A program made the position numbers and the translations under genes. This document shows positions 104 through 57,464 of a stretch of 64,000 bases of DNA, one piece after another (position 1 is the first letter of the stretch; each line of letters opens with the position of its first letter). The DNA is from a virus, in the IMG/VR virus record IMGVR_UViG_3300048856_000029, positions 24,846 through 88,845 of that record. One strand, 5' to 3'. Below the pieces are notes generated by a model. The model was not told the origin of the DNA, searched no databases, and saw nothing but the letters and a program-made list of their open reading frames with translations.

Positions 104-123
104 TCAGTCAGTGTTTACTTATC
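104..123 (-). promoter_or_regulatory. Repeated palindromic operator copy
   Basis: TCAGTCAGTGTTTACTTATC upstream of phoH. Confidence 0.75.
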
Positions 124-172
124 GACATGCTTTCGCGTAAACTGGTGGCATTCGCATACATCGGAGTTCACC

Positions 173-1015
173 ATGTCCAAGGCACGCACGTCCCGGTCCA
201 CTAACAGACAGGAGCGCCGCGGCGCCTCTGTGAAGCCGAACAAACACGCCAACCTGATCCTGAAGGCCATTGAGGAAACTCAGCGGAAGGAGTCCGTCAA
301 GCCGCGCGTCGAGCCCGTTCGTCCGCTCACTGACGGCCAGCGCGCCTATGATGCCGCCTTCAAGTCCTCGGACATCGTCTTTGGTATCGGCTGCGCCGGC
401 ACGGGCAAGACCTGGTTTGCTGTCCAGCGCGCGGTGGAAGCCTATAAGGACGGCCTGGTCAGCAAGATCTATGTCACCCGTCCGAACGTCGACGTGGAGC
501 GTGGCTTCGGCTTCCTGCCCGGCGAGCTGGACGAGAAGTATGCGCCATATCTGGTGCCGCTCGAGGAGGCGTTCGTTGAGGCATTCGGATCCACGCATTA
601 CGAGCTGCTGGTCAAGAACAAGGTGATCGAGCCGGTGCCGCTGGCCTTCATGCGCGGCCGTACCCTCAAGAACGCCTGGGTGATCGCCGACGAAATGCAG
701 AACGCCACGAAGGCCGAGTTCCTGATGTTTCTCACCCGTATCGGCGAGGGCAGCAAATACATCATCAACGGCGACCCGGCCCAGGTCGATCGCGGCATTC
801 GCTCCGGTCTGATGGACGCTGTGGGCAGGGTAGGGCGGCTGGCCGAAGCAAAGGTTATCCGCTTCACGGAGGAAGACGTCGTTCGCCATGACCTCGTGCA
901 GAAAATCGTAAATCTTTATGCAGAGCCGACACGTCCTGACTATTCAGTAGCTGACGACGATGAAAATCGCGCAGGACTGGAAAGAGTGTTGAATGTCGCA
1001 GGCAGCAGAAATTGA
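173..1015 (+). CDS. phoH: PhoH-like ATPase
   Basis: Walker A GCAGTGKT, TRPNV, GFLPG, FMRGRTL, DEMQN and GDPAQ PhoH motifs. Confidence 0.95.
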   Translation: MSKARTSRSTNRQERRGASVKPNKHANLILKAIEETQRKESVKPRVEPVRPLTDGQRAYDAAFKSSDIVFGIGCAGTGKTWFAVQRAVEAYKDGLVSKIYVTRPNVDVERGFGFLPGELDEKYAPYLVPLEEAFVEAFGSTHYELLVKNKVIEPVPLAFMRGRTLKNAWVIADEMQNATKAEFLMFLTRIGEGSKYIINGDPAQVDRGIRSGLMDAVGRVGRLAEAKVIRFTEEDVVRHDLVQKIVNLYAEPTRPDYSVADDDENRAGLERVLNVAGSRN

Positions 1016-1703
1016 ACGTGTAGACCCGCTTGAGGGCGATATCATCGCCTTCAAGCACATTGACAAGAATCTCCTGAAGCTGGAGCCGGAGCTGTTCCGG
1101 ACCAAGTGGTTTGATTATCGCATGATCACGCCGCTCCAGGCGACTGAGCTTTATGTCGAGGCCTTCGCGGAGATCTATCGTTCCTATTTCGCGGTCGAGA
1201 TCGACCGGCGCAATGCGCAGCACGTTCGCATCCCGAACTTCCCGACCGTGATCGCTGGCGTCGAGGCCGGCGATCGCAAGCGCAAGACCTTCTTTGCTGG
1301 TTGCTGGCGCGGCCGGCAGGTCGCTGATGCGCTCGGAATGCCCTACAAGGAGTTCATTCATACGGTGATGGGCTATCGGCTTCGCTTCTGGAGCCAGAAC
1401 CATCTGCCGCGCCCGCATCAGCTCTACAACATGGCCGATGTCGAGCGGACGCAGGAGCGCTGGCAGGAGATGCAGGCCGGTCGTCTCTATCTCGCCGAGC
1501 ATCCAGCCTACATGCTGGAGAACTATGCCGGCATCCAGCACCAGGACGACTATCACGAATGGCTGTTCGCCCAGGCCTATCTGCGGTCCAACCCGTTCGA
1601 AGCGATGGCGACCTTCGTCAATGACAACATTCTGCCGCTCTCCAAGGTGGAAGCACGGGTCGATGAAGACCTGATCGACCGCGTTCATCGTCATCTCCAA
1701 TAG
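993..1703 (+). CDS. Conserved phage hypothetical protein upstream of the helicase
   Basis: 236-aa ORF overlapping phoH, host-like codon usage, in operon. Confidence 0.75.
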   Translation: MSQAAEIERVDPLEGDIIAFKHIDKNLLKLEPELFRTKWFDYRMITPLQATELYVEAFAEIYRSYFAVEIDRRNAQHVRIPNFPTVIAGVEAGDRKRKTFFAGCWRGRQVADALGMPYKEFIHTVMGYRLRFWSQNHLPRPHQLYNMADVERTQERWQEMQAGRLYLAEHPAYMLENYAGIQHQDDYHEWLFAQAYLRSNPFEAMATFVNDNILPLSKVEARVDEDLIDRVHRHLQ

Positions 1704-1730
1704 CACTCCGCTCATTTCTTGCTATTTAGT

Positions 1731-1750
1731 GATAAGTCAATACTGAATGA
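1731..1750 (+). promoter_or_regulatory. Repeated operator copy just downstream of a TATTTA -10-like box
   Basis: GATAAGTCAATACTGAATGA. Confidence 0.8.
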
Positions 1751-3126
1751 CTGAAGGAGTATCGATGTCATCGCAGGAAGCAGATGAAACTGCACACGAA
1801 AGCGGAGACGCAGGGCAGGCGCAGTGGGAATTTGATGAGGGCTTTCAGAAGAAGATCGCCTCGCTGTTCCTGCGCGACTCCCGGTTCGCGAACCAGACCA
1901 AAGATCTGATCCAGGGGGAGTATTTCGCCAACACCGCGCATGGCATGCTGGTCGACCTAGTGAAAGACCATGTCGCTGTTCACAAGGCCGTGCCGGACCC
2001 GCGCATCCTTACGCAGCTCGTGAAAGACGCCAAGGCAGCGAAACGTGTCCGCGAGGACATGATTCCCGACATCAAGAAGATGATCGTGGACTCGATGAAG
2101 GCCGATCTTTCGAACGCCAGCTATGTCGTCGGAAAGGTCACTGACTTCGCCAAGCACCAGGCTATGGAGCAGGCGATAATCAAGAGCGTCGAGCTTTTGC
2201 AGCGCGGCGATTTCAAGGGCATCGAGAAGCTGCAGAAAGCAGCGCTTGCGGTTGGCGCCGACTCCGACGACGAGGGTGACTACCACTACTTCCGCGAGAT
2301 CGACAATCGCACACAGCTCCGCGAGGACTGGAAGGCCGGCAAGATCATCAAGCGCGGCATCTCGACGGGCTATTCCGAGATCGACGCGCACCTCTATCAC
2401 AACGGCTGGGGTCGGCGCGAACTGTCGCTGATGATGGGCGCTGCGAAGGCCGGCAAGTCCCTTTCGCTCGGGGAGTTCACCAAGAACGCCTCGCTGCTTG
2501 GTTTTAACACCGCCTATCTGTCGTGCGAAGTCTCGAAGGACATCATCGCAGACCGTCTCGACGCGAACCTCGCCGACACGGCGATGCGTCTGCTGAAGGA
2601 CGATCCGCAGACGGTCAGGGCCAGGATCAAGGCGGCCGAGAAAGCTGCCGGCGAGTTGATCATCCGCGACTTCGCGTCTGGCACACTGAAGCCGTCGAAG
2701 GTCAAGCGCCTGCTCGAAAAATGGCGCGCAGAAGGCATCACCATCGATCTGCTGGCTATCGACTATGCCGACATCATGGCCGCGGAATATCGCTCCGACA
2801 ACACGATCGACAACCTGCGCTCGATCTACATCGATATCCGCGCAATCGCCTATGAAGAAGACCTGGCGCTGCTGTCTGCTACGCAGACGAACCGATCCGG
2901 CGCGGCTGCTCATACGGCCAAGATGACCGACGTCGCCGAAGACTTCAACAAGATCAGAACCGCTGACGTGGTCATCGGCATCAACGCTACCGATGCCGAA
3001 AAGCAGTCCGGCGAAGCGCGTCTGCATTGGGTCGCGTCGCGTAACTCGGAAGACGGCATGTCGCTGCGCATCCGACAGGACCGCGAGAAGCTCAAGTTCC
3101 TCACCAAAGTCCTCGGGAGGGTATGA
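1747..3126 (+). CDS. Replicative DNA helicase, DnaB/gp41-like (true start may be ATG 1765)
   Basis: STGYSEID, Walker A GAAKAGKS, SCEVS, IDYADIM, ATQTNR, SF4 helicase layout. Confidence 0.92.
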   Translation: MTEGVSMSSQEADETAHESGDAGQAQWEFDEGFQKKIASLFLRDSRFANQTKDLIQGEYFANTAHGMLVDLVKDHVAVHKAVPDPRILTQLVKDAKAAKRVREDMIPDIKKMIVDSMKADLSNASYVVGKVTDFAKHQAMEQAIIKSVELLQRGDFKGIEKLQKAALAVGADSDDEGDYHYFREIDNRTQLREDWKAGKIIKRGISTGYSEIDAHLYHNGWGRRELSLMMGAAKAGKSLSLGEFTKNASLLGFNTAYLSCEVSKDIIADRLDANLADTAMRLLKDDPQTVRARIKAAEKAAGELIIRDFASGTLKPSKVKRLLEKWRAEGITIDLLAIDYADIMAAEYRSDNTIDNLRSIYIDIRAIAYEEDLALLSATQTNRSGAAAHTAKMTDVAEDFNKIRTADVVIGINATDAEKQSGEARLHWVASRNSEDGMSLRIRQDREKLKFLTKVLGRV

Positions 3127-4249: not shown

Positions 4250-4265
4250 AGCGTAGAAGAGGTAT

Positions 4266-4284
4266 TCAGTCAGTATTGACTATC
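4266..4284 (-). promoter_or_regulatory. Repeated operator copy
   Basis: TCAGTCAGTATTGACTATC. Confidence 0.75.
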
Positions 4285-4340
4285 ACCCCAAAGCAGAAAC
4301 AGCTATCAAAGCAACAGAGAGAAAACAGAAAGCGAAAACA

Positions 4341-9490: not shown

Positions 9491-9738
9491 TAGCGAAACC
9501 CTGGAACAAGTGACCTCGCTAGTGATGCCCGATTCGATCTGATTCTGGAAGGCCATGGTTAACGGACAACTTTTGCGTTAACCTTTCGTTCAATAATCGC
9601 ATAAGACGCATTATGGAACTAGATTGAATCCTTGAGATTTCCTTGGAAACTGGCGTCTTTGAATCCTTCAAAGTCCTGAAAAATAGGCATAATGATATCG
9701 CCCATAAGGAAATGCTGAAAAATTCAAGGACTCGAGCG

Positions 9739-9758
9739 TTAAGTAGGTATTGACTTAA
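9739..9758. promoter_or_regulatory. Repeated operator copy upstream of the XRE gene
   Basis: TTAAGTAGGTATTGACTTAA. Confidence 0.6.
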
Positions 9759-9891
9759 CGCCGTTCAATATGCCTATTTGGCCGCGTAGCGACCCAAGAA
9801 CTCCATGCTATTTTGCGCAGTATAAGAAATACAAAACAAACGCTGTCACGCAAATCACTGGGTTCAAGGAAGAAGGAAAGAGATTAAATCG

Positions 9892-10290
9892 ATGGTAACG
9901 AGCATTCACCCGTTCGCTGACAGCAAGGTGACAAAGTTTCTGCAGGAGCGCCTGGCGCAACTGGCTGATCGCAAGAGCGAGCGGCAGGTTGCAGCCGAAG
10001 CCGGCTTTAAGTCCCTCAATATCGTCAACATGATGAAAAAGGGTGACTCGAAGGTGCCGCTTGACCGCGTGGCTGGTTTGGCACGCGCCCTTGAAACCGA
10101 TCCGACGCATTTGTTCATCCTCGCGTTGGATCAGTATATGCCCTCGGACGCGCCCGAGATGTCGATTGCATCGACCATCCTCAGTAAGAATGAGAAGGCG
10201 ATCATCGACTACATACGCGAGGTCTCTGGTTCCTCCGATCCTGGTCTTAACGACCAGCGTAAGGAAGCCATCAAAAAGACCTTTGCCTGA
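9892..10290 (+). CDS. XRE/Cro-C1-type HTH regulator (candidate repressor)
   Basis: SERQVAAEAGFKSLNIVNMMKKGDSKVPLDRVAGLARAL HTH pattern. Confidence 0.8.
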   Translation: MVTSIHPFADSKVTKFLQERLAQLADRKSERQVAAEAGFKSLNIVNMMKKGDSKVPLDRVAGLARALETDPTHLFILALDQYMPSDAPEMSIASTILSKNEKAIIDYIREVSGSSDPGLNDQRKEAIKKTFA

Positions 10291-10314: not shown

Positions 10315-10343
10315 AAAATGGCGGTGACGGGGCCGCCGTTTTT
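10315..10343 (+). terminator. Rho-independent terminator after the XRE gene
   Basis: AAAATGGCGGT-gacggg-GCCGCCGTTTTT. Confidence 0.65.
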
Positions 10344-10355: not shown

Positions 10356-10375
10356 AGTCAGTCAATACTGACTGT
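10356..10375 (+). promoter_or_regulatory. Repeated operator copy
   Basis: AGTCAGTCAATACTGACTGT. Confidence 0.8.
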
Positions 10376-10401
10376 CCCGCACCAAAACAGGAAAGAATGG
10401 C

Positions 10402-10630: not shown

Positions 10631-10650
10631 GATAAGTAAACACTGATTGA
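10631..10650 (+). promoter_or_regulatory. Repeated operator copy
   Basis: GATAAGTAAACACTGATTGA. Confidence 0.75.
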
Positions 10651-10662
10651 ACGGAGAGAATT

Positions 10663-13211: not shown

Positions 13212-13231
13212 GATAAGTCATTATTGACTTG
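13212..13231 (+). promoter_or_regulatory. Repeated operator copy
   Basis: GATAAGTCATTATTGACTTG. Confidence 0.75.
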
Positions 13232-13245
13232 TAACCCTGCTGCGT

Positions 13246-13265
13246 ATTAAGTAAATACTGATTGA
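13246..13265 (+). promoter_or_regulatory. Repeated operator copy overlapping a TATTAA box
   Basis: ATTAAGTAAATACTGATTGA. Confidence 0.75.
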
Positions 13266-13309
13266 TCGCAAGGACAGAACAAGCGACAATCACAATCACG
13301 GAGAGACAA

Positions 13310-19662: not shown

Positions 19663-19682
19663 GATAAGTAAATACTGACTGC
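19663..19682 (+). promoter_or_regulatory. Repeated operator copy after a GCTATTAA box
   Basis: GATAAGTAAATACTGACTGC. Confidence 0.8.
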
Positions 19683-19699
19683 TCAGCAAAGGAGACACC

Positions 19700-22338: not shown

Positions 22339-22861
22339 AGCCCGGAAAGCCCTCGAAGCCGCAATCGGCAAGATCGGCAAGGCCTACGGCGATCTGCTGA
22401 AGGTGGCCGAAAAGCACGGTGACGATATCGCCAAGGAAGACTACGAGAAGGCCCGCTACTACCTCGACCAGACCATCAAGAAGCTCTGGGACAAGGTCGA
22501 CGTGGTGCGCGACGTGGCAAAGGCGACGTCCGGCGAGTTTTCACTCGACAGTGTCGAAATGCCGGAAATGGTAGAGATGAAGTGGCTCGACAATGCCGGA
22601 GCAATGAGAACGTTCAAGGTGCCGGCCGACAGCGGGCTGGTGAAGCCGGACTGGGGCGGCCCGACCGGTGAGCCGCAGCAGACGCCTTCCGTTGATGGCC
22701 CGCTCGCAGTGAGCGACGGCAAGGTGCTCGCCAAGCAGATCGGCGGCCGGCTGACCAAGGCCGCTAAAGCTGCCCTCGCGCAATCAGTCAAAACTGAATT
22801 ACCCGAATCCTCATCGTCTGACGGCGATGGCGACGACGGTGTGGATTTTATCGACGACTAA
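22331..22861 (+). CDS. Hypothetical protein
   Basis: Coupled ORF with acidic tail DDGVDFIDD. Confidence 0.7.
   Translation: MSEARKALEAAIGKIGKAYGDLLKVAEKHGDDIAKEDYEKARYYLDQTIKKLWDKVDVVRDVAKATSGEFSLDSVEMPEMVEMKWLDNAGAMRTFKVPADSGLVKPDWGGPTGEPQQTPSVDGPLAVSDGKVLAKQIGGRLTKAAKAALAQSVKTELPESSSSDGDGDDGVDFIDD
22782..22801 (+). promoter_or_regulatory. Operator copy embedded in CDS upstream of recA
   Basis: AATCAGTCAAAACTGAATTA. Confidence 0.6.
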
Positions 22862-25578: not shown

Positions 25579-26183
25579 AGGAGTGGCTTGATCGGATCCG
25601 CACCTCGGTTGAAACCTTCTGGGGTGTGGATCAAAGCATTCCTCTTTATGGCCCGGATACCACTTGGCTCGATATTCTCGGCGCGGTCAGCTCCGTGTCT
25701 GCTTTTGTCGCGTTGATCTTCGCCGGCATTAGTGTGCTTCAAAATACCAAAAGCCGTAACCTCTCGACCATCGTAGAGTTCACCGCGCAGCTCGCACAAG
25801 AACGACGCTTGGGTTTTGAGGCAAAGGTTTTCGGCGACATGTCCGATTCTCAAATCCACGCCTATCAAATGGCGCATCTGGTGGAATCAGCAGCCTTCAT
25901 CATCAATAGAAACATGATCACAGGCCAAGCGAAGGCGTTCCTATTGGACTGGTTGGCGGTAGAAGTTCCGCATATGGAACAACAGAAAGTCTATCAGGAT
26001 TTGTTTTCATCCACGATAGAGGGCGAAATGGCTGAGTTCTTCCGGCTCCGCAAGAATCTCGCACGGCAGCATGCAAAGCGGGAGCGAGAACTTCTTCAGT
26101 TGCGCCACTGGGACAAACTCGAAAGAGACGATCTCCGAGAACGCGCTGCAGCCCTCCAAAAGAGTTTATCCAGTCAGTATTGA
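25575..26183 (+). CDS. Single-pass membrane protein (accessory cassette)
   Basis: TM segment ILGAVSSVSAFVALIFAGISVL; atypical codon usage. Confidence 0.7.
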   Translation: MKEWLDRIRTSVETFWGVDQSIPLYGPDTTWLDILGAVSSVSAFVALIFAGISVLQNTKSRNLSTIVEFTAQLAQERRLGFEAKVFGDMSDSQIHAYQMAHLVESAAFIINRNMITGQAKAFLLDWLAVEVPHMEQQKVYQDLFSSTIEGEMAEFFRLRKNLARQHAKRERELLQLRHWDKLERDDLRERAAALQKSLSSQY

Positions 26184-35239: not shown

Positions 35240-35283
35240 TTGCAGCCCATGTGAGCTTCGTCTATTAAGTAAATACTGACTGA
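35240..35283 (+). promoter_or_regulatory. Promoter TTGCAG-N17-TATTAA with overlapping operator
   Basis: TTGCAG 35240, TATTAA 35263, operator ATTAAGTAAATACTGACTGA 35264-35283. Confidence 0.75.
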
Positions 35284-35370
35284 TAGCGAGTAGTCATCGG
35301 TTCAATTAGATACGACGAGGTGCGAATGAAGCTCTGAGCAATAGGTGGCCGTTCGAACGGTATTGACTAA

Positions 35371-36296: not shown

Positions 36297-37253
36297 GTGT
36301 CGAAAGACCAGATGTTCGCCAAGGTCGTGCTTGCATCCAAGCCAACCAACGGCGCGCCACCCATCATCACAATGCACTGGCACTACCCTCGCCCCATTCA
36401 CGGCGAGGTCATGACGCATCGCGTCTTCAGCCGGAACGCTAGATCCTCGCGCGCCGTGCCTGTCGCGACGATGCTGAAGGAGATCCGTGAGGCTCCGTTC
36501 GTTCCGTGGCACTGGGGAAAGAACCAGAAGGGGATGCAGGCCGGCGAAGAGTGCAAAGGGCTCGTTGATATGAGCGGCACCCTGTTTGCTGGCATCGGCA
36601 ATCCGCTCGTGCGCGAAAGCGCCTGGAAGCTGGCCGCAGAGTCCGCCGCTGGTATGGCCGAAGCCTTCTCCGACGCCGGCTACCATAAGCAGATCGCCAA
36701 CCGTCTGATTGAGCCGTTCTCCTGGATCGACACGCTGATCACCTCGACGTCCTGGGCGAACTTCCTGCATCTGCGCGATCACAAGGACGCTGAGCCGCAC
36801 TTCCAGGATCTCGCCGCGATGGTTCGGGAGGCGATCGACAGTGCAGAGTTCGAACCTCTCCGCCCCGGACAGTGGCATCTCCCGTATGTCCCGCATTGGG
36901 AGCGCGCAGATATCGTTAAGGCAATTACCGGCAAAAAATGGGACGAAGATTGGGATCAACGTGACTACCTGGCGATGGCGAAGATCTCCGTCGCCCGTTG
37001 CGCCCGCATCTCCTACAAGCCTTTCGACGGAGACGGCTCCATTGAGAAGGAGCTGGAGCGCTATGAGACGCTCGTCGGCTCGTCACCGCTGCACGCCTCA
37101 CCGGCCGAGCACCAGGCCACACCTGATTGGACTGAGGTCGATTATCACGGTGAGCCGCTGTGGGCCAACCAGAACCTGTCCGGCAATCTCGGCCCCGGCT
37201 GGATCCAGTATCGCAAGACACTGCCCGGCGAATACATCGCCGACGCGGCATGA
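36297..37253 (+). CDS. thyX: Flavin-dependent thymidylate synthase (ThyX/Thy1 phage type)
   Basis: THRVFSRNARSSRAVP, HKQIANRLIEPF, NFLHLR, HASPAEHQA. Confidence 0.88.
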   Translation: MSKDQMFAKVVLASKPTNGAPPIITMHWHYPRPIHGEVMTHRVFSRNARSSRAVPVATMLKEIREAPFVPWHWGKNQKGMQAGEECKGLVDMSGTLFAGIGNPLVRESAWKLAAESAAGMAEAFSDAGYHKQIANRLIEPFSWIDTLITSTSWANFLHLRDHKDAEPHFQDLAAMVREAIDSAEFEPLRPGQWHLPYVPHWERADIVKAITGKKWDEDWDQRDYLAMAKISVARCARISYKPFDGDGSIEKELERYETLVGSSPLHASPAEHQATPDWTEVDYHGEPLWANQNLSGNLGPGWIQYRKTLPGEYIADAA

Positions 37254-37271
37254 TCAGTCAAAACTGAAAGG
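37252..37271 (+). promoter_or_regulatory. Repeated operator copy
   Basis: GATCAGTCAAAACTGAAAGG. Confidence 0.6.
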
Positions 37272-37278
37272 ATAGGAA

Positions 37279-38313: not shown

Positions 38314-38333
38314 GATAAGTCATTATTGACTAG
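38314..38333 (+). promoter_or_regulatory. Operator copy after a GCTATTAA box
   Basis: GATAAGTCATTATTGACTAG. Confidence 0.8.
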
Positions 38334-38359
38334 ATAAGCGCAAGCAGATAGGCAGGAAT

Positions 38360-39698: not shown

Positions 39699-39746
39699 CA
39701 CGCGCATCCCTGCGATGCGCGTGCTATTAAGTAAGTATTGAATGAC
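39699..39746 (+). promoter_or_regulatory. 10-bp hairpin, TATTAA box and operator copy upstream of rIIA
   Basis: CACGCGCATC/GATGCGCGTG then TTAAGTAAGTATTGAATGAC. Confidence 0.6.
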
Positions 39747-39781
39747 AAGTGAAAAACGCTTGCGTTGAGAAGGAGAGATAA

Positions 39782-42172
39782 ATGCAGGTTTCACAGTTGG
39801 TCGAGCTCGATACCCACGCCGTTATCGGCGGTGGCAAGGCGCGCTCATTCTCGATGTCGGACTCGGCTGAGTTCTTCACCGTCCTGTCCGATACCCTTTA
39901 CCGCGACAAGAAGCGCGCAGTCGTCCGCGAAGTCATCTGCAATGGCTGGGACGCGCATATCATGAATGATTGCACGGACACCTACCTCGAGGTGACGCTG
40001 ACCGAGGACGAGATCATCTTCAAGGATTTCGGGCCAGGCATCGCCGACGAAAAGATCGTGCCTATCTACTGCGTCTATGGCGCGTCGACCAAGGTCCGCG
40101 ACGCGAACCAGACAGGCGGCTTTGGCCTCGGGTCCAAGTCACCCTTTGCCTATTCCGACCATTTCACCGTCACGAGCTGCTTTGAAGGCATGAAGCGGGT
40201 TTACGCGATCAGCCGAGGCGGCACTGAAACGGAAGGTCGGCCTGAGATCCGCGAGATGGTCAGCGTGCCGACGACCGAGACCGGCATCACCGTGACGATC
40301 CCGCTGCGCGACAAGAGCGACCTGCCGGAGTTCCAGCAGAACATCTTCTCCGTCGCCTATCAGGGTGGCATGAAGGTGAAGCTCAACGGCAGGCAGCTCG
40401 CAACGCTGAACTACGAGCCTGCGCGTAAGCAGGGCTTCTGTGCCATCGAGAACGTGCGCGCTGAACTGCGCGAGTCATATGCCTATCTGCTTTACGGCAC
40501 CGTTCTCTATCCAATCACCACAACGGATGCCAGAATCTCCGAGGCGGCCTTGAGGGCCGGTAATCTCGTCGGCAACGGCTACAGACTTGTGCTGATCGCG
40601 CCGCCCAACTCGGTCGGCATCACGCCCAGCCGCGAGTCCCTTTCCTATTCCGAGTTAACGACGCAGACCATCCTTCGCCTCCTGAAACGTGCGACGAAGT
40701 CGCTCGAGGCGAGCATCCCGAGCGCCGGCAAGAAGATCATCACTCGCCTCGCGGCAACGATGGAGCTCGACAAGGCCGGCGACGGCACGATGCAGAACAT
40801 GTCCATGCGCCAGGCTCACCAGATGCCGCAGACCCTGGTCACGCCGGAGCAGATCGCGGCATACACTATCCGGTGCGATTTCGATCGCATCCCGCGTGCC
40901 ACGCGCCGCAAGTGGATCTACGACGGTCTGGCGAAGAAGTATCCGCACATGCGCGCAACGCTTCGCAAGGCTCGTGGCGCGGGCGTGGACTTCTCCGTGA
41001 TGACGAGACAACACGCTCACACCCGGTTCGTCCGGCTGGCCGTCAAAACCGGCCTGCTCAATGGCGCGTTGATCTACGACGACAACCACAGCTACCACGG
41101 CACGTCCCGGCTCGACAGCATCCGCAGGGAGTTGGGTGACGGTGCCATCGGAAAGAACATCTACGTGGCGCCGAACCGTCGCGAGCTGACGTCGATGATC
41201 GTCGGCAGCAAGAGCGACCCAACCTCACGCAGCCGCAATCTCTATCTTGGCCTGGTCGTTGGACAGAAGCCGTCGCGCGATCTGCTGGACCGGCTGCGCA
41301 CGGAAGCGAAGACTTTTGGTTTCACCCTTGACGAATACGACTGGGAGTTCGTGAAGCCGAAGGTGGTTCGAAAGCAGAAGGCGAGCGAGAAGTTCCATGC
41401 CTTCGTCGACTACCGCGACAAAGATAAGACGATGGTCGAGCCGAGCCTCGAGGCGCCTAAGTTCTTCATGCGCGGCTACACTTACGATGGCGAGCTGCGC
41501 CTGGGTATCGATGATCACGGCGCTCGCCATATCCTCGCCGAGATGTATCCCGAGCTCGCCGTCATTACGACGAAGGAGCAGGAGCAGAAGCTTCGCGCGG
41601 CCGGCGTTGTGCATGTGATCGAGGACGTTGAGAAGCGTCTGGCAAAGATGGTCAAGTGCCGTGAGGTGCAATACGGGCTGATGGTGCAGGACCGGAATTT
41701 CTGCAACAAGACCGGGCTCACCTACTACTACGAAAGCTACAAGCTTTGTGAAACGGCACTCGCACTCGCCCGGCTGCACATGGACATTGCCCGGCTGATC
41801 TTCCCGGATCGCGCAAAGCCGGGCGAGAAGTGGAAGGAAGCCAGGCAGCTTGTTCGCGTTATGCGAACCTTCCCGCACAGCAGCCAGAACTATGCCGACA
41901 GCAAGGAAGCACCCGCATCCGTCCTGTCGAAGCTCGAAAATGCGGCTCGTGAGACGTTCAAGGATATGATCGTCACCAAGAACGATGCGGCGAAGCGGCT
42001 CGGCTATCTGTCGGTGCTGATCGGATCCGAATGGATCACCGATCGCAGCAGCCTCGACGAGCCGGCCCGTGACAAACTTATCGGCGTAATCCGCTATCTG
42101 CAGCGCTTTGCCGATAAGTCAAAACTGACTGTCAAGCACACCAACACCATCGCCCAGAAGGAGGCAGCATGA
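39782..42172 (+). CDS. rIIA-like protein (GHKL ATPase)
   Basis: LSDTLYRDKKRAVVREVICNGWDAH, DFGPG, STK, GGFGLGSKSPFAYSD. Confidence 0.88.
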   Translation: MQVSQLVELDTHAVIGGGKARSFSMSDSAEFFTVLSDTLYRDKKRAVVREVICNGWDAHIMNDCTDTYLEVTLTEDEIIFKDFGPGIADEKIVPIYCVYGASTKVRDANQTGGFGLGSKSPFAYSDHFTVTSCFEGMKRVYAISRGGTETEGRPEIREMVSVPTTETGITVTIPLRDKSDLPEFQQNIFSVAYQGGMKVKLNGRQLATLNYEPARKQGFCAIENVRAELRESYAYLLYGTVLYPITTTDARISEAALRAGNLVGNGYRLVLIAPPNSVGITPSRESLSYSELTTQTILRLLKRATKSLEASIPSAGKKIITRLAATMELDKAGDGTMQNMSMRQAHQMPQTLVTPEQIAAYTIRCDFDRIPRATRRKWIYDGLAKKYPHMRATLRKARGAGVDFSVMTRQHAHTRFVRLAVKTGLLNGALIYDDNHSYHGTSRLDSIRRELGDGAIGKNIYVAPNRRELTSMIVGSKSDPTSRSRNLYLGLVVGQKPSRDLLDRLRTEAKTFGFTLDEYDWEFVKPKVVRKQKASEKFHAFVDYRDKDKTMVEPSLEAPKFFMRGYTYDGELRLGIDDHGARHILAEMYPELAVITTKEQEQKLRAAGVVHVIEDVEKRLAKMVKCREVQYGLMVQDRNFCNKTGLTYYYESYKLCETALALARLHMDIARLIFPDRAKPGEKWKEARQLVRVMRTFPHSSQNYADSKEAPASVLSKLENAARETFKDMIVTKNDAAKRLGYLSVLIGSEWITDRSSLDEPARDKLIGVIRYLQRFADKSKLTVKHTNTIAQKEAA
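42113..42132 (+). promoter_or_regulatory. Operator copy embedded in the rIIA 3' end
   Basis: GATAAGTCAAAACTGACTGT. Confidence 0.7.
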
Positions 42173-43734
42173 GCACGAATATTGTCGTCATTGTCGGCGC
42201 AATCGCCGGTGCCAAGGGGATCACCCTTTACCACAAGGATGGCCGCGAAACGAACCTGGCACTTGAAAGCTGGCGCACGAAGCAGATCATGGACAAGGTA
42301 ACGCCCTTCATTGCGCGACGCGAACCTGTCGAGATTGATCTCGACACCTATGACGTCCACGCTCACATCGAGCGTAAGTCGGGCGGCCTGATCCGGTTCG
42401 TGCGCGAGAAGATCGCGTCCGTCAGAACCTGGTTCAAGCCGACTGCCGGCGACGATGCCTCTAAGGAGGTGATGGCGTTTCAGCAGACCGAGCCGGTCGA
42501 GGGACACGTCTATGGCGTCCCTGCCGCTGCTCCCGACCAGGAAACCGTCGTTGCTGTCATCGGTGACAGGAAGGTGCCGGGTGTCGAGGCGCTCGAAAAG
42601 CACATGGAGCACGCGCTCGCTACCGGCAACACCGAGGGCGTCGAGAACTTCATGAAGCGCTGCGCTGCCGTCATCGACACGCGCGGGCACTCGATCCAGG
42701 AACTGCTCAACTTCATGCGCAAGGGCGACCTGCCGATCGCTAAGGACGGCTCGATCATCGCCTATAAGGTGCTGCAAACAGCGACGATCGACGGGAAGCA
42801 GGTGATTGTCGACTGCGCCTCCAGGAAGGTCATCCAGCGCGTCGGCTCGCGCGTCGTCATGGATGAGAAGCTGGTTGATCCGAGCCGAAGAACCCAGTGC
42901 TCGTCCGGACTGCATATCGCGCGGCGCGGCTATCTCGGCCACTTCGGCGGCGACGTGATTATGATGGTCAAGATCGCTCCCGAAGACGTCATCGCCGTCC
43001 CGGTCGGAGAGCCCGATAAGATGCGCGTCGCCGCCTATCATGTCGTCGGTCAGATCCCCAACAACGTTCACGCGCTGCTGCGCTCCAATAAGCCGATGAC
43101 GGGCGACGACGCTGCCAGCCGATTGCTTGCCGACGTGATCGCCGGCAACCATGTCGGTGTGCTCGAAGAGGTTCGCATCACTGGACCTTACGGCGCCGGG
43201 CTGAAGATCACGCCGCTTGTCGAGCAGTCGCCGGCAATCAAGGAAGGCATCAGTGGCACGGCCAAGGCCCTTGATGATGAACAGAAGCCTGCTGTTACGG
43301 CCAAGGAACTGCGTGAAGCGGTGCGGGCGGTCGCTGCAGACGCTCCAGCACCTGAAGCCGAGATCACACGTAACCACGTTCAGATGATCAATGGCGAGCT
43401 GCATGTCGACGGCGAGAAGATGGAAACTGAGACAGCGCAGGAACGGCGCAACCGCTTGAAGCGCGAGACGCGTGCCGCGAAGAAGCCGAGTCCGCAGGTG
43501 CAGGAAGCAGCAAAGACCGGCGATCTCTCCGCTGCGATCACCCAGGCGGTTATGCCAAAGGCGGCGCCGGCTGATCAGTCAAAATTGACTGGAAAGCCCA
43601 ATGAGAAGCATGAGCGGGCGCTCGCTCTGCACAAGGAAGGAAAGTCGAACCGCGCGATCGAGGCCGAGCTCCACATCTGCCGCAAGACCCTGAAGAAGCT
43701 TTTCGACAAGCACGGCCTGAAGCCCAACGGCTGA
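42169..43734 (+). CDS. rIIB-like protein with C-terminal HTH-like extension
   Basis: LPIAKDGSIIAYK, VDPSRRTQCSSGLH, KIAPEDVIAVP, KMRV; C-terminal SNRAIEAELHICRKTL. Confidence 0.85.
   Translation: MSTNIVVIVGAIAGAKGITLYHKDGRETNLALESWRTKQIMDKVTPFIARREPVEIDLDTYDVHAHIERKSGGLIRFVREKIASVRTWFKPTAGDDASKEVMAFQQTEPVEGHVYGVPAAAPDQETVVAVIGDRKVPGVEALEKHMEHALATGNTEGVENFMKRCAAVIDTRGHSIQELLNFMRKGDLPIAKDGSIIAYKVLQTATIDGKQVIVDCASRKVIQRVGSRVVMDEKLVDPSRRTQCSSGLHIARRGYLGHFGGDVIMMVKIAPEDVIAVPVGEPDKMRVAAYHVVGQIPNNVHALLRSNKPMTGDDAASRLLADVIAGNHVGVLEEVRITGPYGAGLKITPLVEQSPAIKEGISGTAKALDDEQKPAVTAKELREAVRAVAADAPAPEAEITRNHVQMINGELHVDGEKMETETAQERRNRLKRETRAAKKPSPQVQEAAKTGDLSAAITQAVMPKAAPADQSKLTGKPNEKHERALALHKEGKSNRAIEAELHICRKTLKKLFDKHGLKPNG
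43573..43592 (+). promoter_or_regulatory. Operator copy embedded in the rIIB 3' end
   Basis: GATCAGTCAAAATTGACTGG. Confidence 0.7.
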
Positions 43735-44610: not shown

Positions 44611-44630
44611 AATCAGTCAATACTGATTGC
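44611..44630 (+). promoter_or_regulatory. Operator copy overlapping a TATTAA box
   Basis: AATCAGTCAATACTGATTGC. Confidence 0.8.
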
Positions 44631-44647
44631 ATGATAAGGAAAGACAC

Positions 44648-48103: not shown

Positions 48104-48123
48104 GATCAGTCAGTATTGAATAT
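48104..48123 (-). promoter_or_regulatory. Repeated operator copy
   Basis: GATCAGTCAGTATTGAATAT. Confidence 0.65.
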
Positions 48124-48164
48124 CCAACCGCGCGTCCCTTGGGCGCAGAAAGGTTTGTGCGACA

Positions 48165-50633: not shown

Positions 50634-50865
50634 GGTAAGCCGGAAACGGCTCGAATACGCATGTCAGGCATTCCTGAACCAGATGGCTCGGGCATACGCC
50701 GCGGCGCATCCCGACGAGGCGTCGCCCATAAAGACGATCACCGATTACTCGCCCGAGCAGCGGTCGATATTGATGAAGGCGATTGGCGCCGCGATCAAAT
50801 CGACTTTGCCAGAGGCTGACCAGGCATTTGCAGACTGGCATTCACGTCAAATGAATGATCAGTAA
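50626..50865 (+). CDS. Small hypothetical protein
   Basis: GTG start overlapping the upstream stop. Confidence 0.6.
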   Translation: MTKVSRKRLEYACQAFLNQMARAYAAAHPDEASPIKTITDYSPEQRSILMKAIGAAIKSTLPEADQAFADWHSRQMNDQ

Positions 50866-50913
50866 ATACTGATTGACTGACATTCGAATCGGCGATAAGT
50901 GAACACTGAACAG
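50857..50913 (+). promoter_or_regulatory. Two tandem operator copies
   Basis: GATCAGTAAATACTGATTGA (50857) and GATAAGTGAACACTGAACAG (50894). Confidence 0.7.
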
Positions 50914-51375
50914 GAGAGAGCAATGCCTTTAGACCCAGATATACTGCGGTGCGCAATTGTCACCGCACCCTTCCGCGCGGGCAAATCCATTGCGCTGGCT
51001 GAATACGCCAAGCTGATGAGCGAAATGACCAAGGTGGTCGTGCCTGATCCTCGTGCGCGCGGCACGACGATGGGCACCATGATCGTCATGGACGAGTTCT
51101 ACCGCCCTCCTCCTTATCGCGTCGATTTTGCGCTTGTGGCGCAATTCAAGGACCACCGCTTCCCTGGCTGCACCGTGACCGTTCGGGAAGAGGATCTTGA
51201 GAGGCACGATCCACGCAACCGCAATCCACGCGCCGGCCGACAGAAGTGCTGGATCGTCTCGGGTGGCGGGACCGAGGACAAGACGCTCTACAATCTCAAC
51301 CAGGCAAAATTCATCGCTAAAACCCTGCACAAGCGCCTGGTCTCCGCTGCACTATCCTCCCGTTTTCCTTCGTAG
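50899..51375 (+). CDS. Hypothetical protein (start may be ATG 50923)
   Basis: CAGGAGAG RBS before MPLDP. Confidence 0.5.
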   Translation: MNTEQERAMPLDPDILRCAIVTAPFRAGKSIALAEYAKLMSEMTKVVVPDPRARGTTMGTMIVMDEFYRPPPYRVDFALVAQFKDHRFPGCTVTVREEDLERHDPRNRNPRAGRQKCWIVSGGGTEDKTLYNLNQAKFIAKTLHKRLVSAALSSRFPS

Positions 51376-51382: not shown

Positions 51383-51402
51383 GATAAGTAATTATTGATT
51401 GA
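51383..51402 (+). promoter_or_regulatory. Operator copy upstream of the kinase gene
   Basis: GATAAGTAATTATTGATTGA. Confidence 0.75.
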
Positions 51403-51420
51403 TCACGACAGGAGAGAGAC

Positions 51421-56428: not shown

Positions 56429-56495
56429 ATCCGATCACCGACATGGGGAGCCGCATCCCGCGGCTCCCTCGCCTATCGAAGAGGAAGGAGGCATC

Positions 56496-56837
56496 GTGAC
56501 TGACGACGAGAAGAAGGCGCGCATCCGAGAACTGAATGACGAGTTGCGGCGAAAAGGTCATGCGCGCAACGGCAGAATGATTGCAGTCGGCGCACTAGCC
56601 CAAGACCATTATGTGAAAGGCCTAGCCGCCGCCGTCGCGGCCGGCCTCTTCACCGACTTTAACGAGGAAAATGATCCTCACGGCGAGCACGACTGCGCCA
56701 CGTTCATGTTCAACGGCGAGCGGTTCATGTTCAAGATCGACTATTTCGCCTTGGATGAAGAGACGCTCTCCGAGCACCCCGAGGATCCAAACATCACCAT
56801 CCGCATCATGAGCGTCATGTATGCCGAGGACTACTGA
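56496..56837 (+). CDS. DUF3768-family protein
   Basis: IRELNDELRR, DFNEENDPHGEHD, FKIDYF, MSVMYAEDY. Confidence 0.85.
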   Translation: MTDDEKKARIRELNDELRRKGHARNGRMIAVGALAQDHYVKGLAAAVAAGLFTDFNEENDPHGEHDCATFMFNGERFMFKIDYFALDEETLSEHPEDPNITIRIMSVMYAEDY

Positions 56838-57136
56838 TGCACGAGGCGCTGATCGAGTCATTCGTCGATAAGGTCAATCGATATTTCGTGGGGTTGACCG
56901 AGATCACGCAGGACGTCTGGAACGAGGACGAAAAGCCGACCTATCGCATTCAGGTCACTGCCCTCGCGGACGGCGTCAATGAGCACGACATCACCTGCAA
57001 AGGCGAACGCCGGGCGCGCCAGATCTTCAAAAAGTTCTGTCGAGAATACGGAATGACGGTCGAAAGCGACGATGGCGAGGCCGTGCCGGAGCCGAGGGCC
57101 GACTATACCGATAACCCGCTCTATGGTCGCTTCTGA
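56837..57136 (+). CDS. Hypothetical protein with C-terminal YGRF tail
   Basis: Ends YTDNPLYGRF*. Confidence 0.75.
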   Translation: MHEALIESFVDKVNRYFVGLTEITQDVWNEDEKPTYRIQVTALADGVNEHDITCKGERRARQIFKKFCREYGMTVESDDGEAVPEPRADYTDNPLYGRF

Positions 57137-57199
57137 TCCCAGTAGGAGCCCTTGTGCGCTCATGCGACACTGAGAGCATAGTGAATTGCAGAGGAATGA

Positions 57200-57460
57200 A
57201 TGAGCAAGAGACTGAGGATTCCGCAGGAGATCATCGACGTGCTTGAGGAGGTAGGCGACTACTCCTTCGAGGAAGGGACCAAGCACACCAAGATCCTGCT
57301 TTGCGGCCGGCAGGTCGGAATCCTACCGAACGGCAAGGGGCGTGACGGCCAGAACCGCGGCCGGCAGCACAAGAATACGGTCGCCGGGATCAAAAGAAAG
57401 ATCCGGGAGATCAAGGAAGCGGCTATGCAAACTGGCGCCGCAATGATAAGTCAATACTGA
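57200..57460 (+). CDS. Small basic protein, HicA-like fold possible
   Basis: EEGTKHTKILL pattern; no HicB adjacent. Confidence 0.45.
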   Translation: MSKRLRIPQEIIDVLEEVGDYSFEEGTKHTKILLCGRQVGILPNGKGRDGQNRGRQHKNTVAGIKRKIREIKEAAMQTGAAMISQY

Positions 57461-57464
57461 CTGC
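57445..57464 (+). promoter_or_regulatory. Near-consensus operator copy
   Basis: GATAAGTCAATACTGACTGC. Confidence 0.85.

What the first reader, a model, noticed from the sequence alone, without database searches (positions are those of the whole stretch)
104..57464. About 26-copy palindromic operator regulon covering nearly every operon
Seen in the sequence: T[AC]AGT[CA]A-N4-TGA[CT]T[GT]A-like sites at 104, 1731, 4266, 9739, 10356, 10631, 13212, 13246, 19663, 22782, 26170, 26216, 30119, 31689 (perfect GATAAGTCA-N4-TGACTTATC), 35264, 37252, 38314, 39727, 42113, 43573, 44611, 48104, 50857, 50894, 51383 and 57445. Most are intergenic and directly overlap or follow a (GC)TATTAA -10 box, with a T[TAC]GCA-like -35 about 16-18 bp upstream. 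It does not match the alpha LexA box. Established precedent: the P1 C1 repressor silences a phage-plasmid through many dispersed operators. Inference: one master repressor keeps the whole lytic replication programme off. The XRE protein at 9892-10290, with sites on both sides, is a candidate.
Basis: partly seen in the sequence, partly recalled or inferred. Interest (0 to 1): 0.8.

Follow-up and report, generated by a model that had tools for sequence, protein, structure and literature searches.

The report
Master-repressor operator regulon of phage-plasmid
A 22-bp palindrome repeated about 46 times between the genes of this 116-kb SSU5-like phage-plasmid is most likely the binding site of one phage-encoded dimeric repressor, and the same site-plus-repressor pair is found in every relative checked, from Rhizobium to Klebsiella, Salmonella pHCM2 and Acinetobacter.

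Summary
The complete 115.7-kb element has 46 sites, 43 of them intergenic. The motif is roughly 8000 times denser than in 61 bacterial genomes of a related order.

The arms show no compensatory pairing, and many sites do not fold as RNA. Some sites directly follow a -10 box. Others fill the 17-bp spacer of TTGNNN-17-TATNAT promoters ahead of structural genes. These are repressor-type operators on duplex DNA, not RNA hairpins.

The same palindrome family (27-51 copies) is in all seven fully scanned elements (the window's own and six relatives) from alpha-, beta- and gammaproteobacteria, upstream of orthologous genes.

The best candidate binder is the protein at 9892-10290:
- It has a Cro/CI-type HTH fold and is predicted to form a homodimer.
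- It occurs once in each of the seven elements scanned for it, at the same position next to cobT in those where the neighbourhood was examined.
- Its E. coli ortholog (Cyrano CYRAN_45) is transcribed in lysogens.
- One recognition-helix residue tracks the variable operator base in 21 of 21 elements, across three independent switches.

Binding itself is untested. I found no description of this regulon in the literature library searched. It is a new member of a known kind (P1 C1-like or L5-like multi-operator repressors).

The parts
102..123 (.). operator site, 4 nt after the upstream stop and 49 nt before the PhoH-like gene (173)
   Evidence: PWM 30.4; context; an orthologous site lies upstream of phoH in 5 of the 6 relatives, i.e. 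in 6 of the 7 elements counting this one
1731..1752 (+). operator directly after a -10 box (gcTATTTAgt), 12 nt before the DnaB-like gene
   Evidence: PWM 32.7
4264..4285 (.). operator between the primase gene and the WGR-domain gene; no obvious promoter
   Evidence: PWM 26.5
9738..9759 (.). operator in the divergent region between the RHH gene (-) and the XRE gene (+). Its right arm, TTGACT, could serve as the -35 of the XRE promoter (inference).
   Evidence: PWM 25.0; a leftward promoter-like site lies at 9721-9692; sequence
9892..10290 (+). candidate repressor P0001, 132 aa: Cro/CI-type HTH (about residues 16-78) plus a C-terminal dimerisation region
10320..10340 (+). terminator-like hairpin plus T-run that closes the repressor transcription unit
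10356..10377 (.). operator 24 nt before the conserved 73-aa gene (10402)
   Evidence: PWM 27.2
10631..10652 (+). operator directly after a -10-like box, 10 nt before cobT. The position is conserved in 6 of 7 elements.
   Evidence: PWM 29.6
13212..13233 (.). upstream member of a tandem operator pair (34 bp apart) ahead of cobS
   Evidence: PWM 30.0
13246..13267 (+). downstream member of the pair; the -10 (gcgtATTAAGT) overlaps its left arm
   Evidence: PWM 31.3
19663..19684 (+). operator after GCTATTAAGT, 15 nt before gene 19700
   Evidence: PWM 31.3
22782..22803 (.). operator inside the 3' end of ORF 22331-22861, 68 nt before the recA-like gene
   Evidence: PWM 29.2
26168..26189 (.). upstream member of a tandem pair (48 bp apart)
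   Evidence: PWM 22.5
26216..26237 (+). operator after tcTATTAAGT, 10 nt before gene 26248
   Evidence: PWM 25.7
30119..30140 (+). operator after gcTATCTTct, 15 nt before gene 30156
   Evidence: PWM 32.2. It does not fold as RNA (0 kcal/mol).
31689..31710 (+). perfect palindrome after gtcTATATg, 32 nt before the 762-aa gene
   Evidence: PWM 31.2. It is the only one of the six sites folded that gives a stable RNA hairpin (-12.4 kcal/mol).
35264..35285 (+). operator overlapping the -10 of the promoter that heads the leader and tRNA region
   Evidence: PWM 32.4; tRNA at 35482-35565
37252..37273 (.). promoterless operator that overlaps the upstream stop codon, 5 nt before gene 37279
   Evidence: PWM 24.8
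38314..38335 (+). operator after GCTATTAAAT, 24 nt before gene 38360
   Evidence: PWM 28.6
39726..39747 (+). operator overlapping the -10 (gtgctATTAAGT), 34 nt before the rIIA-like gene
   Evidence: PWM 29.7
42113..42134 (.). operator inside the 3' end of the rIIA-like ORF, 34 nt before the rIIB-like gene
   Evidence: PWM 30.9
43573..43594 (.). operator inside the 3' part of ORF 42169-43734
   Evidence: PWM 30.0
44611..44632 (+). operator after GCTATT, 15 nt before gene 44648
   Evidence: PWM 29.1
48104..48125 (.). promoterless operator 16 nt after a stop codon and 39 nt before gene 48165
   Evidence: PWM 27.3
50857..50878 (.). operator, upstream member of a pair (37 bp apart) before gene 50923
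   Evidence: PWM 31.7
50894..50915 (.). weak, doubtful site
   Evidence: PWM 17.2 on a matrix that included it; below threshold on the symmetric matrix
51383..51404 (.). operator 8 nt after a stop codon and 16 nt before gene 51421
   Evidence: PWM 31.2; no hairpin better than shuffles
57445..57466 (.). operator overlapping the end of ORF 57200-57460, 10 nt before gene 57477
   Evidence: PWM 29.6

Best explanation
The 22-bp palindromes are duplex-DNA operators for one element-encoded, dimeric helix-turn-helix repressor. The repressor is most likely the 132-aa XRE/Cro-CI-type protein at 9892-10290.

Each HTH of the dimer reads one half-site, T-[A/C]-A-G-T-[C/A]-A. The half-site centres lie 10 bp apart.

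About a third of the sites sit directly after a -10 box, across the expected transcription start. A few sit inside the 17-bp spacer of near-consensus sigma-70-type promoters ahead of structural genes. In both positions a bound protein would exclude RNA polymerase.

Other sites come in pairs 34-63 bp apart that bracket a promoter. Others lie in short promoterless gaps between genes, where a bound dimer could act as a roadblock to read-through.

The repressor gene is its own transcription unit. An operator lies in its promoter region and a terminator follows it, so it would be autoregulated.

In the plasmid-prophage state this one protein would keep early, replication, nucleotide-metabolism, lysis and structural operons silent. 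Genes without the site (replication initiator, partition, toxin-antitoxin, cargo) would stay on.

Shown: the sites, their placement, their conservation, the fold, the predicted dimer and the co-variation.

Inferred: binding, the direction of regulation, the roadblock function and autoregulation.
For: - Enrichment and placement.
- Element specificity: TMAGTMANNNNTGAYTKA gives 28 strand-hits in 0.116 Mb here, against 7 in 61 genomes totalling roughly 230 Mb by my own summing of the listed sizes.
- Not hairpin-selected: arm complementarity is never above the column-shuffle expectation and is below it at 3 positions here and in RHEph10. High-scoring sites 10631, 30119 and 51383 do not fold as RNA. 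No Rfam family matches.
- Repressor geometry: -10 boxes lie directly upstream of 11 window sites. The palindrome fills the spacer of TTGNNN-17-TATNAT promoters at genome positions 7534, 13929, 109031 and 112761. The same arrangement occurs in B1VFA, the Klebsiella plasmid and Cyrano.
- Conservation: 27-51 sites in each of the 7 fully scanned elements, i.e. this one and 6 relatives, and 26 in Cyrano. In each, 84-100% of sites are intergenic. Sites lie upstream of orthologous genes. At orthologous sites the core is 75-84% identical and the flanks 31-42%.
- The binder: Cro/CI HTH by profile (8bny immunity repressor, 434 Cro) and by fold (pLDDT 90.6; 434 Cro, P22 c2, lambda cI, C.AhdI).
- Homodimer model: ipSAE 0.57 against a best control of 0.01. 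In calibration this mark was reached by 20 of 30 known homodimers and 1 of 23 monomers. The interface is residues 94-132.
- One ortholog per element in all 7 elements (six by profile search; pLM21S1's by tblastn).
- The Cyrano ortholog CYRAN_45 is 10-fold above prophage background in LF82 lysogens (PMC9928086, Table 1). An operator directly follows its -10.
- Cyrano's strong sites precede genes that are absent from that lysogen-expressed list.
- The residue two before the invariant Asn of the recognition helix is Asn in 12 of 12 elements with AGTAA half-sites. It is S, Q, K, R, T or a gap in 9 of 9 elements with AGTCA half-sites. On the protein tree this takes 3 independent changes.
Against: - No binding, footprint, TSS or expression data exist for this element. 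No RNA runs were found.
- P0001 has no Pfam hit at E<=0.01 and only a weak PHROG match (2.5e-4).
- More than half of the sites have no recognisable promoter, so their role is conjecture.
- The helix/operator correlation rests on 21 related elements and a tree of short proteins with moderate support. For four enterobacterial plasmids the operator type was inferred from few exact hits plus likeness to Cyrano.
- Distant homologs outside this phage-plasmid group are not flanked by this palindrome, so the family does not have one fixed specificity.
- RHEph10 and B1VFA are deposited as phage isolates, so the sites could also serve timing during lytic growth.
Confidence: 0.65

Rival explanations
1. 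The palindromes are operators, but a different element-encoded protein binds them. One option is one of the two conserved ParB-like proteins acting as a KorB-like global silencer. Another is an unrecognised small protein.
For: Two ParB-like proteins are conserved in all relatives. An operator lies 28 nt before the first one. ParB/KorB proteins bind palindromes and can repress many promoters (established knowledge of RK2 KorB).
Against: - The Cyrano orthologs CYRAN_119 and CYRAN_120 are not among the genes expressed in the lysogen, whereas the XRE ortholog is.
- The ParB-like genes lie in the packaging operon, behind an operator.
- A separate small ParA plus 89-aa partner pair already looks like the partition system.
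- The operator variant tracks an XRE recognition-helix residue in 21 of 21 elements.
Confidence: 0.12
2. The sites belong to a lytic-cycle timing circuit rather than to lysogenic silencing. The same or another protein would use them during infection to shut off or switch between early and late transcription (Cro-like or controller-like).
For: RHEph10 and B1VFA are deposited as phage records with named hosts. The sites cover both early and late modules. The closest fold matches include restriction-modification controller (C) proteins.
Against: - Relatives reside as plasmids in many hosts.
- In LF82 the ortholog is expressed while most of the element is silent.
- The placement at and within promoters is repressive, and the sites precede silent genes.

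The two roles are not exclusive.
Confidence: 0.12
3. The repeats act as RNA or DNA hairpins: processing or stability elements, attenuators, or mobile REP-like palindromes.
For: The sites are palindromic, lie in transcribed intergenic gaps close to ribosome-binding sites, and the perfect copy folds at -12.4 kcal/mol.
Against: - There is no compensatory variation; the arms vary independently or are anti-correlated.
- Several top-scoring sites do not fold.
- In promoter-proximal sites the expected start lies inside the left arm, so the transcript would lack it.
- In spacer-embedded sites the palindrome is not transcribed from that promoter.
- What is conserved across classes is sequence, not structure.
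- No Rfam family matches.
Confidence: 0.04
4. The palindrome is a promoter element read by the element's own sigma-like factor (14578-15204).
For: A sigma-70 region-2 protein is encoded in the cobTS-polymerase operon.
Against: The sigma gene was not detected in B1VFA, Cupriavidus or the Klebsiella plasmid, which all carry the motif. Sigma factors do not read 22-bp dyads. The sites sit downstream of, or between, ordinary -35/-10 hexamers.
Confidence: 0.03

Closest known systems
Bacteriophage P1 C1 repressor and its dispersed operators
   Same: Both are phage-plasmids in which one repressor is thought to silence many scattered operons through numerous operators. Several of those operators overlap promoters. 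(My own knowledge of P1; the P1 genome paper could not be opened.)
   Different: P1 operators are asymmetric 17-bp sites, and C1 is a larger, unrelated protein (my own knowledge). Here the sites are 22-bp dyads, the candidate is a small Cro/CI-type HTH dimer, and there are about 46 sites.
Mycobacteriophage L5 (cluster A) repressor with operators and 'stoperators'
   Same: Both have more than twenty sites spread over the genome, in promoters and in short promoterless intergenic gaps (PMC9283540).
   Different: L5 sites are 13-bp, asymmetric, orientation-dependent, and bound by a monomer that uses two domains. Here the sites are palindromic and the protein is predicted to be a dimer. A block to elongation is only conjecture here.
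Lambdoid CI/Cro, 434 and P22 c2 repressors
   Same: They share the fold of the DNA-binding domain and dimer binding to 14-18-bp dyads with half-sites one helical turn apart. Operators overlap the promoters, and the divergent arrangement of the repressor gene is seen in the Klebsiella, Cupriavidus and Cyrano relatives.
   Different: Lambdoid phages have a handful of operators in one immunity region. Here the operator is repeated ahead of nearly every operon, late genes included. No S24 peptidase domain is present in P0001.
RK2/IncP KorA-KorB global regulon
   Same: A plasmid backbone is coordinated by palindromic operators repeated at many promoters (my own knowledge).
   Different: KorB is a ParB-family protein. 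The ParB-like proteins here are not favoured as the binder.
22-bp intergenic repeats of phage T1 and Citrobacter phage Stevie
   Same: Both have 16-20 intergenic 22-bp repeats of unknown role in a siphophage (PMC4319613).
   Different: The T1 and Stevie repeats are asymmetric and oriented with transcription. Their sequence is unrelated.

Membership tests
XRE / Cro-CI helix-turn-helix DNA-binding proteins (candidate binder P0001) | Five-helix Cro/CI-type HTH fold | tested here: met
   AlphaFold model with pLDDT 90.6. Foldseek probability 1.00 to C.BclI, C.AhdI, lambda cI, 434 Cro (rmsd 1.7 A over 63 residues) and P22 c2. A profile search hits 8bny immunity repressor at E 2.6e-4 and 434 Cro.
XRE / Cro-CI helix-turn-helix DNA-binding proteins (candidate binder P0001) | Match to Pfam HTH_3/HTH_XRE models above the curated threshold | tested here: not met
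   No Pfam family at E<=0.01. Only PHROG phrog_8 'transcriptional regulator' at 2.5e-4. Precomputed 'weak' HTH_3 hits exist on two homologs.
XRE / Cro-CI helix-turn-helix DNA-binding proteins (candidate binder P0001) | Sequence-specific binding to a dyad operator as a dimer | tested here: inconclusive
   The dimer is supported by a model only (0.57 against 0.01 for the best control; 20 of 30 known homodimers and 1 of 23 monomers reach the mark). Binding is inferred from the helix/operator co-variation (21 of 21 elements, 3 independent changes).
P1 C1-type multi-operator phage-plasmid immunity | Many dispersed operators for a single repressor, several overlapping promoters | tested here: met
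   46 sites. 11 window sites abut a -10 box, and 4 genome sites fill a -35/-10 spacer.
P1 C1-type multi-operator phage-plasmid immunity | C1-family repressor and asymmetric 17-bp operator | tested here: not met
   The operator is a 22-bp dyad. The candidate is a 132-aa Cro/CI-type protein. Homology to C1 itself was not searched directly.
L5-type stoperator system | Repressor sites in short promoterless intergenic gaps throughout the genome | tested here: met
   At least 12 single sites lie 0-16 nt after a stop codon and 5-55 nt before the next start, with no promoter-like hexamers.
L5-type stoperator system | Asymmetric site, orientation tied to transcription, monomeric two-domain repressor | tested here: not met
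   The sites are dyad-symmetric, with only mild left/right differences in degeneracy. A homodimer is predicted.
L5-type stoperator system | Bound repressor stops elongating RNA polymerase | not testable with these tools
   This needs in vivo or in vitro transcription assays.
KorB/ParB-type global silencer | ParB-family protein that is expressed in the carrier state and binds the repeated palindrome | tested here: inconclusive
   ParB-like genes are present. Their Cyrano orthologs are not in the published list of lysogen-expressed genes. No binding test was possible.
Structured RNA / REP-like hairpin repeat | Base pairing maintained by compensatory changes; stable fold at most copies | tested here: not met
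   Observed arm complementarity is at or below shuffle expectation in all 7 elements. 3 of the 6 sites folded are no better than shuffles.

The most novel reading that the evidence does not exclude
The whole SSU5/pHCM2/pMT1 super-group of phage-plasmids (alpha-, beta- and gammaproteobacteria, Acinetobacter included) shares one ancient master switch. This is a small dimeric Cro/CI-type repressor whose dyad operator keeps an invariant A-N-T-N-A core. Its immunity specificity has flipped at least three times between AGTCA and AGTAA through a single recognition-helix residue (non-Asn versus Asn). That would define heteroimmune groups that can be predicted from sequence.

In addition, the promoterless intergenic copies would act as elongation roadblocks. 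That would make this the first 'stoperator'-like system built on a symmetric site and a dimer.
Probability: 0.3. Interest if true: 0.7.

Novelty: new member of a known kind. Interest (0 to 1): 0.6.

Why it matters
SSU5-like phage-plasmids are common in Salmonella (pHCM2), Klebsiella, Enterobacter, E. coli, Yersinia (pMT1) and Acinetobacter. P0001 homologs occur in 368 PLSDB plasmids. A 2024 review of phage-plasmid regulation names no lysis-lysogeny regulator for this group (PMC11652158). A search for pHCM2 with repressor and operator returned nothing.

A conserved operator plus a named candidate repressor would:
- give a sequence-level handle for annotating their promoters and regulons;
- allow which elements are immune to one another to be predicted;
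- allow induction, curing or reporter experiments to be designed;
- allow cargo genes that escape repression to be told apart from the phage programme.

For this element it also explains the striking uniformity of its intergenic regions.

Tried and rejected
- **Host-chromosome frequency.** This could not be tested. I used 151 and 61 genomes of the order of one bacterial carrier of a homolog as background instead.
- **RNA evidence.** No RNA runs hold this sequence.
- **Wider sampling of related loci.** The search for related loci with protein alignments failed because no conserved stretch was found.
- **Blind test of the helix/operator rule on distant homologs.**
  - Only one contig (L055) belonged to the phage-plasmid group, and it obeyed the rule.
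  - Three short contigs with Asn-type proteins, and two others, lacked the palindrome altogether. They seem to be other elements with other operators.
  - This test is therefore inconclusive, and I replaced it with ten complete plasmids.
- **The 73-aa gene as a Cro analogue.** This gene lies after the repressor gene. It has no HTH signal, no family hits and only four close homologs, so I did not pursue it.
- **RHH protein (9290-9490) and sigma factor as binders.** Both are missing from several motif-bearing relatives.
- **Rfam.** Only a tRNA was found.
- **Left/right asymmetry of the site.** There is a mild bias: the upstream arm is better conserved in this genome. I could not give it a meaning.

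Full report
**What is there**

The core AGTCA-N4-TGACT with at most one mismatch occurs 19 times in the window, against 1.1 expected. The stricter 18-mer occurs 4 times against 0.01 expected. A matrix scan recovers 25 of them strongly; 50894 is weak.

The window is bases 24846-88845 of a single 115,723-bp virus record. The whole record has 46 sites, against 0.17 expected in Markov shuffles. 43 of the 46 are intergenic in a genome that is 86% coding (P about 2e-33). The median distance to the next start codon is 33 nt. 25 of the 37 gaps of 30-100 bp hold a site.

**What the element is**

Nucleotide matches and synteny place it with the following:
- Rhizobium phage RHEph10;
- the plasmid-prophage pLM21S1 of Sinorhizobium LM21;
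- 107-119-kb plasmids of Pararhizobium, Shinella, Methylobacterium and Cupriavidus;
- more distantly, the Klebsiella SSU5-like plasmids.

Shared genes include phoH, dnaB, primase, ligase, repC, cobT, cobS, a sigma-like gene, Pol III alpha, SSB, recA, sbcCD, RNR, rIIAB, parA, ParB-like genes, terminase, portal and tail genes.

pLM21S1 and RHEph10 were described as archetypes of a RepC-driven plasmid-like prophage group (PMC4447125). Neither that paper, nor PMC5537653, nor the other searches mention a repeated palindrome or operator.

**Element specificity**

The true host is unknown, because the record comes from a soil metagenome. As background I used genomes from the order of Pelagibacterium lacus, a bacterium that carries a homolog of the candidate repressor.
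- The pattern TMAGTMANNNNTGAYTKA gives 28 strand-hits in the 0.116-Mb element.
- It gives 7 strand-hits in 61 genomes, roughly 230 Mb by my own summing of the listed sizes.
- The sister pattern AAGTMANNNNTKACTT gives 50 hits in 151 genomes, roughly 590 Mb on the same basis, against 32 in B1VFA alone.

A host regulator with a chromosomal regulon is also unlikely.

**DNA operator or RNA hairpin**

Three lines of evidence favour duplex DNA read by a protein.
1. In all seven genomes the number of complementary arm pairs is never above what independent columns give. In this genome and RHEph10 it is below expectation at positions 4/19, 6/17 and 8/15. A weak half-site tends to be paired with a good one. 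That fits binding energy, not pairing.
2. Of six sites folded as RNA, only the perfect one (31689) gives a stable hairpin (-12.4 kcal/mol). Sites 10631, 30119 and 51383 score as high on the matrix but fold no better than shuffles. Rfam finds only a tRNA.
3. The promoter geometry is that of a repressor operator.
   - Eleven window sites directly follow a (GC)TATTAA-type -10 box, with a GCAyyC or TTGCA-like -35 upstream. The expected start therefore falls inside the left arm.
   - In B1VFA the same class is very uniform: GCGCTATAA followed by the palindrome.
   - In a second class the palindrome is itself the 17-bp spacer of near-consensus promoters. An example is TTGATG-17-TATTAT at genome 112761, with others at 7534, 13929 and 109031. 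All four lie ahead of structural or portal genes.
   - The second class recurs in B1VFA (TTGCAA-17-TACAAT, TTGATA-17-TATTAT), in the Klebsiella plasmid, and in E. coli phage Cyrano (TTGAAA-17-TATGAT).

A protein bound between optimally spaced -35 and -10 hexamers, or across +1, blocks RNA polymerase (established principle).

Six pairs of sites lie 34-63 bp apart and bracket a promoter. At least a dozen single sites lie in promoterless gaps. What those do is not shown. A roadblock role, as in L5, is a conjecture.

**Conservation**

A de novo palindrome count and an iterated matrix find the same family in every relative sequenced through.

| Element | Copies | Form of the site |
|---|---|---|
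| RHEph10 | 39 | as in the window |
| pLM21S1 | 40 | TAAGTAAG-NN-CTTACTTA |
| B1VFA | 39 | TAAGTAAG-NN-CTTACTTA |
| Methylobacterium oryzae plasmid | 51 | TAAGTCAGCGCTGACTTA |
| Cupriavidus metallidurans plasmid | 40 | TCAGTCAG..CTGACTGA |
| Klebsiella oxytoca pCAV1752-111 | 27 | ATAAGTAA-N4-TTACTTAT |
| E. coli phage Cyrano | 26 | as in the Klebsiella plasmid |

A5, T7 and A9 of the half-site are nearly invariant. The 4-bp centre drifts with host G+C content. In each element 84-100% of the sites are intergenic.

Sites precede orthologous genes at similar distances. Ahead of cobT the distances are 10, 10, 18, 18, 10 and 8 nt. The same holds for portal, phoH, cobS, and the helicase/ParB-like divergent region. 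At orthologous sites the core is 75-84% identical and the flanks only 31-42%.

**Who binds**

The binder must be present wherever the motif is. Among proteins conserved in all elements, the only one with a classical sequence-specific HTH, apart from the ParB-like pair and the small terminase, is the 132-aa product of 9892-10290 (P0001).
- **Family signals.** It has no Pfam hit. It has a weak PHROG 'transcriptional regulator' match. A profile of 75 homologs hits an immunity repressor (8bny), 434 Cro/repressor, C.AhdI and P22 c2.
- **Fold.** A confident model (pLDDT 90.6) superposes on 434 Cro, P22 c2, lambda cI, DdrO and controller proteins.
- **Dimer.** A homodimer is supported by modelling: ipSAE 0.57 against a best control of 0.01. 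In the tool's calibration this mark was reached by 20 of 30 known homodimers and 1 of 23 monomers. The contacts are in residues 94-132, which leaves the HTH domains free.
- **Copy number and position.** Each of the seven elements has exactly one ortholog (six by profile search, pLM21S1's by tblastn). Where the neighbourhood was examined it lies next to the small gene and cobT, and in the RepC-type elements between the replication initiator and cobT.
- **Local architecture.** In the Klebsiella, Cupriavidus and Cyrano elements the gene is divergent from that operon, with 3-4 operators in the gap. Here it has an operator in its divergent promoter region and a terminator after it.

Independent published data fit. 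[quoted passage not shown] Its authors treat it as the master repressor (PMC9928086, Table 1). A short dyad (GGTAAGCACTTACC) directly follows the -10 of its promoter.

Cyrano's 24 strong sites precede structural, lysis, replication and nucleotide-metabolism genes that are not on that list. The expressed units are CYRAN_26/27, 28-30, 43, 50/51, 99, 102 and 109. None of these has a site directly upstream. The ParB-like CYRAN_119 and 120 are not on the list.

**The strongest link between protein and site**

Elements differ at half-site position 8: AGTCA or AGTAA. In the motif G-[FYWI]-x1-x2-x3-N at the start of the recognition helix, x2 differs with it.
- **x2 is Asn in all 12 elements with AGTAA-type sites.** These are pLM21S1, B1VFA, the R. 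beringeri plasmid, contig L045, Shinella (68% A), the Klebsiella plasmid, Cyrano, a Salmonella plasmid, pHCM2, pMT1, an E. coli plasmid and Acinetobacter CP107594.
- **x2 is Ser, Gln, Lys, Arg, Thr or a gap in all 9 elements with AGTCA-type sites.** These are this element, RHEph10, Pararhizobium, L046, L055, two Methylobacterium plasmids, Cupriavidus and Acinetobacter CP131951.

On a FastTree of the 21 proteins the AGTAA type falls in three separate clades. That requires three changes, each accompanied by Asn.

Caveats:
- The proteins are short and branch support is moderate.
- One alignment gap (Acinetobacter CP107594) needs a judgement.
- For four enterobacterial plasmids the operator type rests on few exact hits plus likeness to Cyrano.

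**Rivals**

- **A ParB-like/KorB-like binder** remains possible, but expression and co-variation disfavour it.
- **A role in lytic timering** rather than lysogeny, or in addition to it, is not excluded.
- **RNA hairpins** are contradicted by the tests above.
- **Sigma-factor promoters** are contradicted too: the sigma gene is missing in several motif-bearing relatives.

**Comparison with known systems**

Functionally this resembles P1 C1, a phage-plasmid repressor with many dispersed operators. It also resembles the L5 repressor, whose sites lie both in promoters and in promoterless gaps (PMC9283540). The DNA-binding module and the dyad geometry are those of lambdoid CI/Cro proteins.

It is not a member of the C1 or L5 families. 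The operator is symmetric, and the protein is a small predicted dimer of a different family. I therefore class it as a new member of a known kind.

What is new is that an entire, medically and ecologically widespread phage-plasmid super-group appears to share this operator and repressor. Homologs occur in 368 PLSDB plasmids, and the specificity switch can be read from sequence.

**Limits**

Everything about binding, the direction of regulation, autoregulation and roadblocking is inference. Gene calls are my own crude codon-model calls. Promoter assignments are consensus matches.

Noticed in passing
window 35264-35565: The operator-bearing promoter at 35264 heads an ORF-free leader of about 200 nt and a tRNA (Rfam RF00005, 35482-35565, 63.7 bits). 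The tRNA would therefore be under the same repressor.
   Followed up: partly
window 10402-10623: A conserved 73-aa gene occupies the 'cro position' directly after the repressor gene, or first in the divergent operon in the Klebsiella, Cupriavidus and Cyrano relatives. It has no HTH signal and a hydrophobic, invariant C-terminus (PPLGCGILLFPFAIRD). Function unknown.
   Followed up: partly
window 14578-15204: A sigma-70 region-2 protein is encoded between cobS and Pol III alpha. It was detected in RHEph10, pLM21S1 and Methylobacterium but not in B1VFA, Cupriavidus or the Klebsiella plasmid. No promoter motif could be assigned to it.
   Followed up: partly
G000:C1 7534, 13929, 109031, 112761 (outside the window; loci L040, L043): Structural and portal genes are preceded by near-consensus TTGNNN-17-TATNAT promoters whose spacer is the palindrome. 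Late genes may therefore run on host sigma-70 once the repressor is gone.
   Followed up: partly
L056:2537-2990: In a Rhizobiaceae metagenome contig that carries a distant homolog of the repressor, a stretch called as an ORF holds at least 7 copies of CCCCGCACACGCGGGG at a 61-bp period. This looks like a CRISPR array rather than a gene.
   Followed up: no
L052:229-250: A distant homolog (P0005) has a 7-N4-7 dyad (ACTCGTA-CCGT-TACGAGT) in its divergent upstream region. The geometry matches the operator here, but the sequence differs.
   Followed up: no
W09 (Shinella zoogloeoides plasmid NZ_CP132310): Its 22 exact sites mix AGTAA and AGTCA half-sites (about 68% to 32%) although its repressor has the Asn. 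It may be an intermediate or relaxed specificity.
   Followed up: partly
window 62245-62258: An exact AGTCA-N4-TGACT core lacks the conserved flanks. It lies in the minus-strand, low-G+C region at the right end of the window and is probably chance.
   Followed up: no
NC_014022 (Yersinia pestis pMT1), locus L065: pMT1 keeps an intact ortholog of the repressor, nearly identical to that of pHCM2. It has only 3 exact core sites, which may reflect decay of the phage regulon in this plasmid.
   Followed up: no
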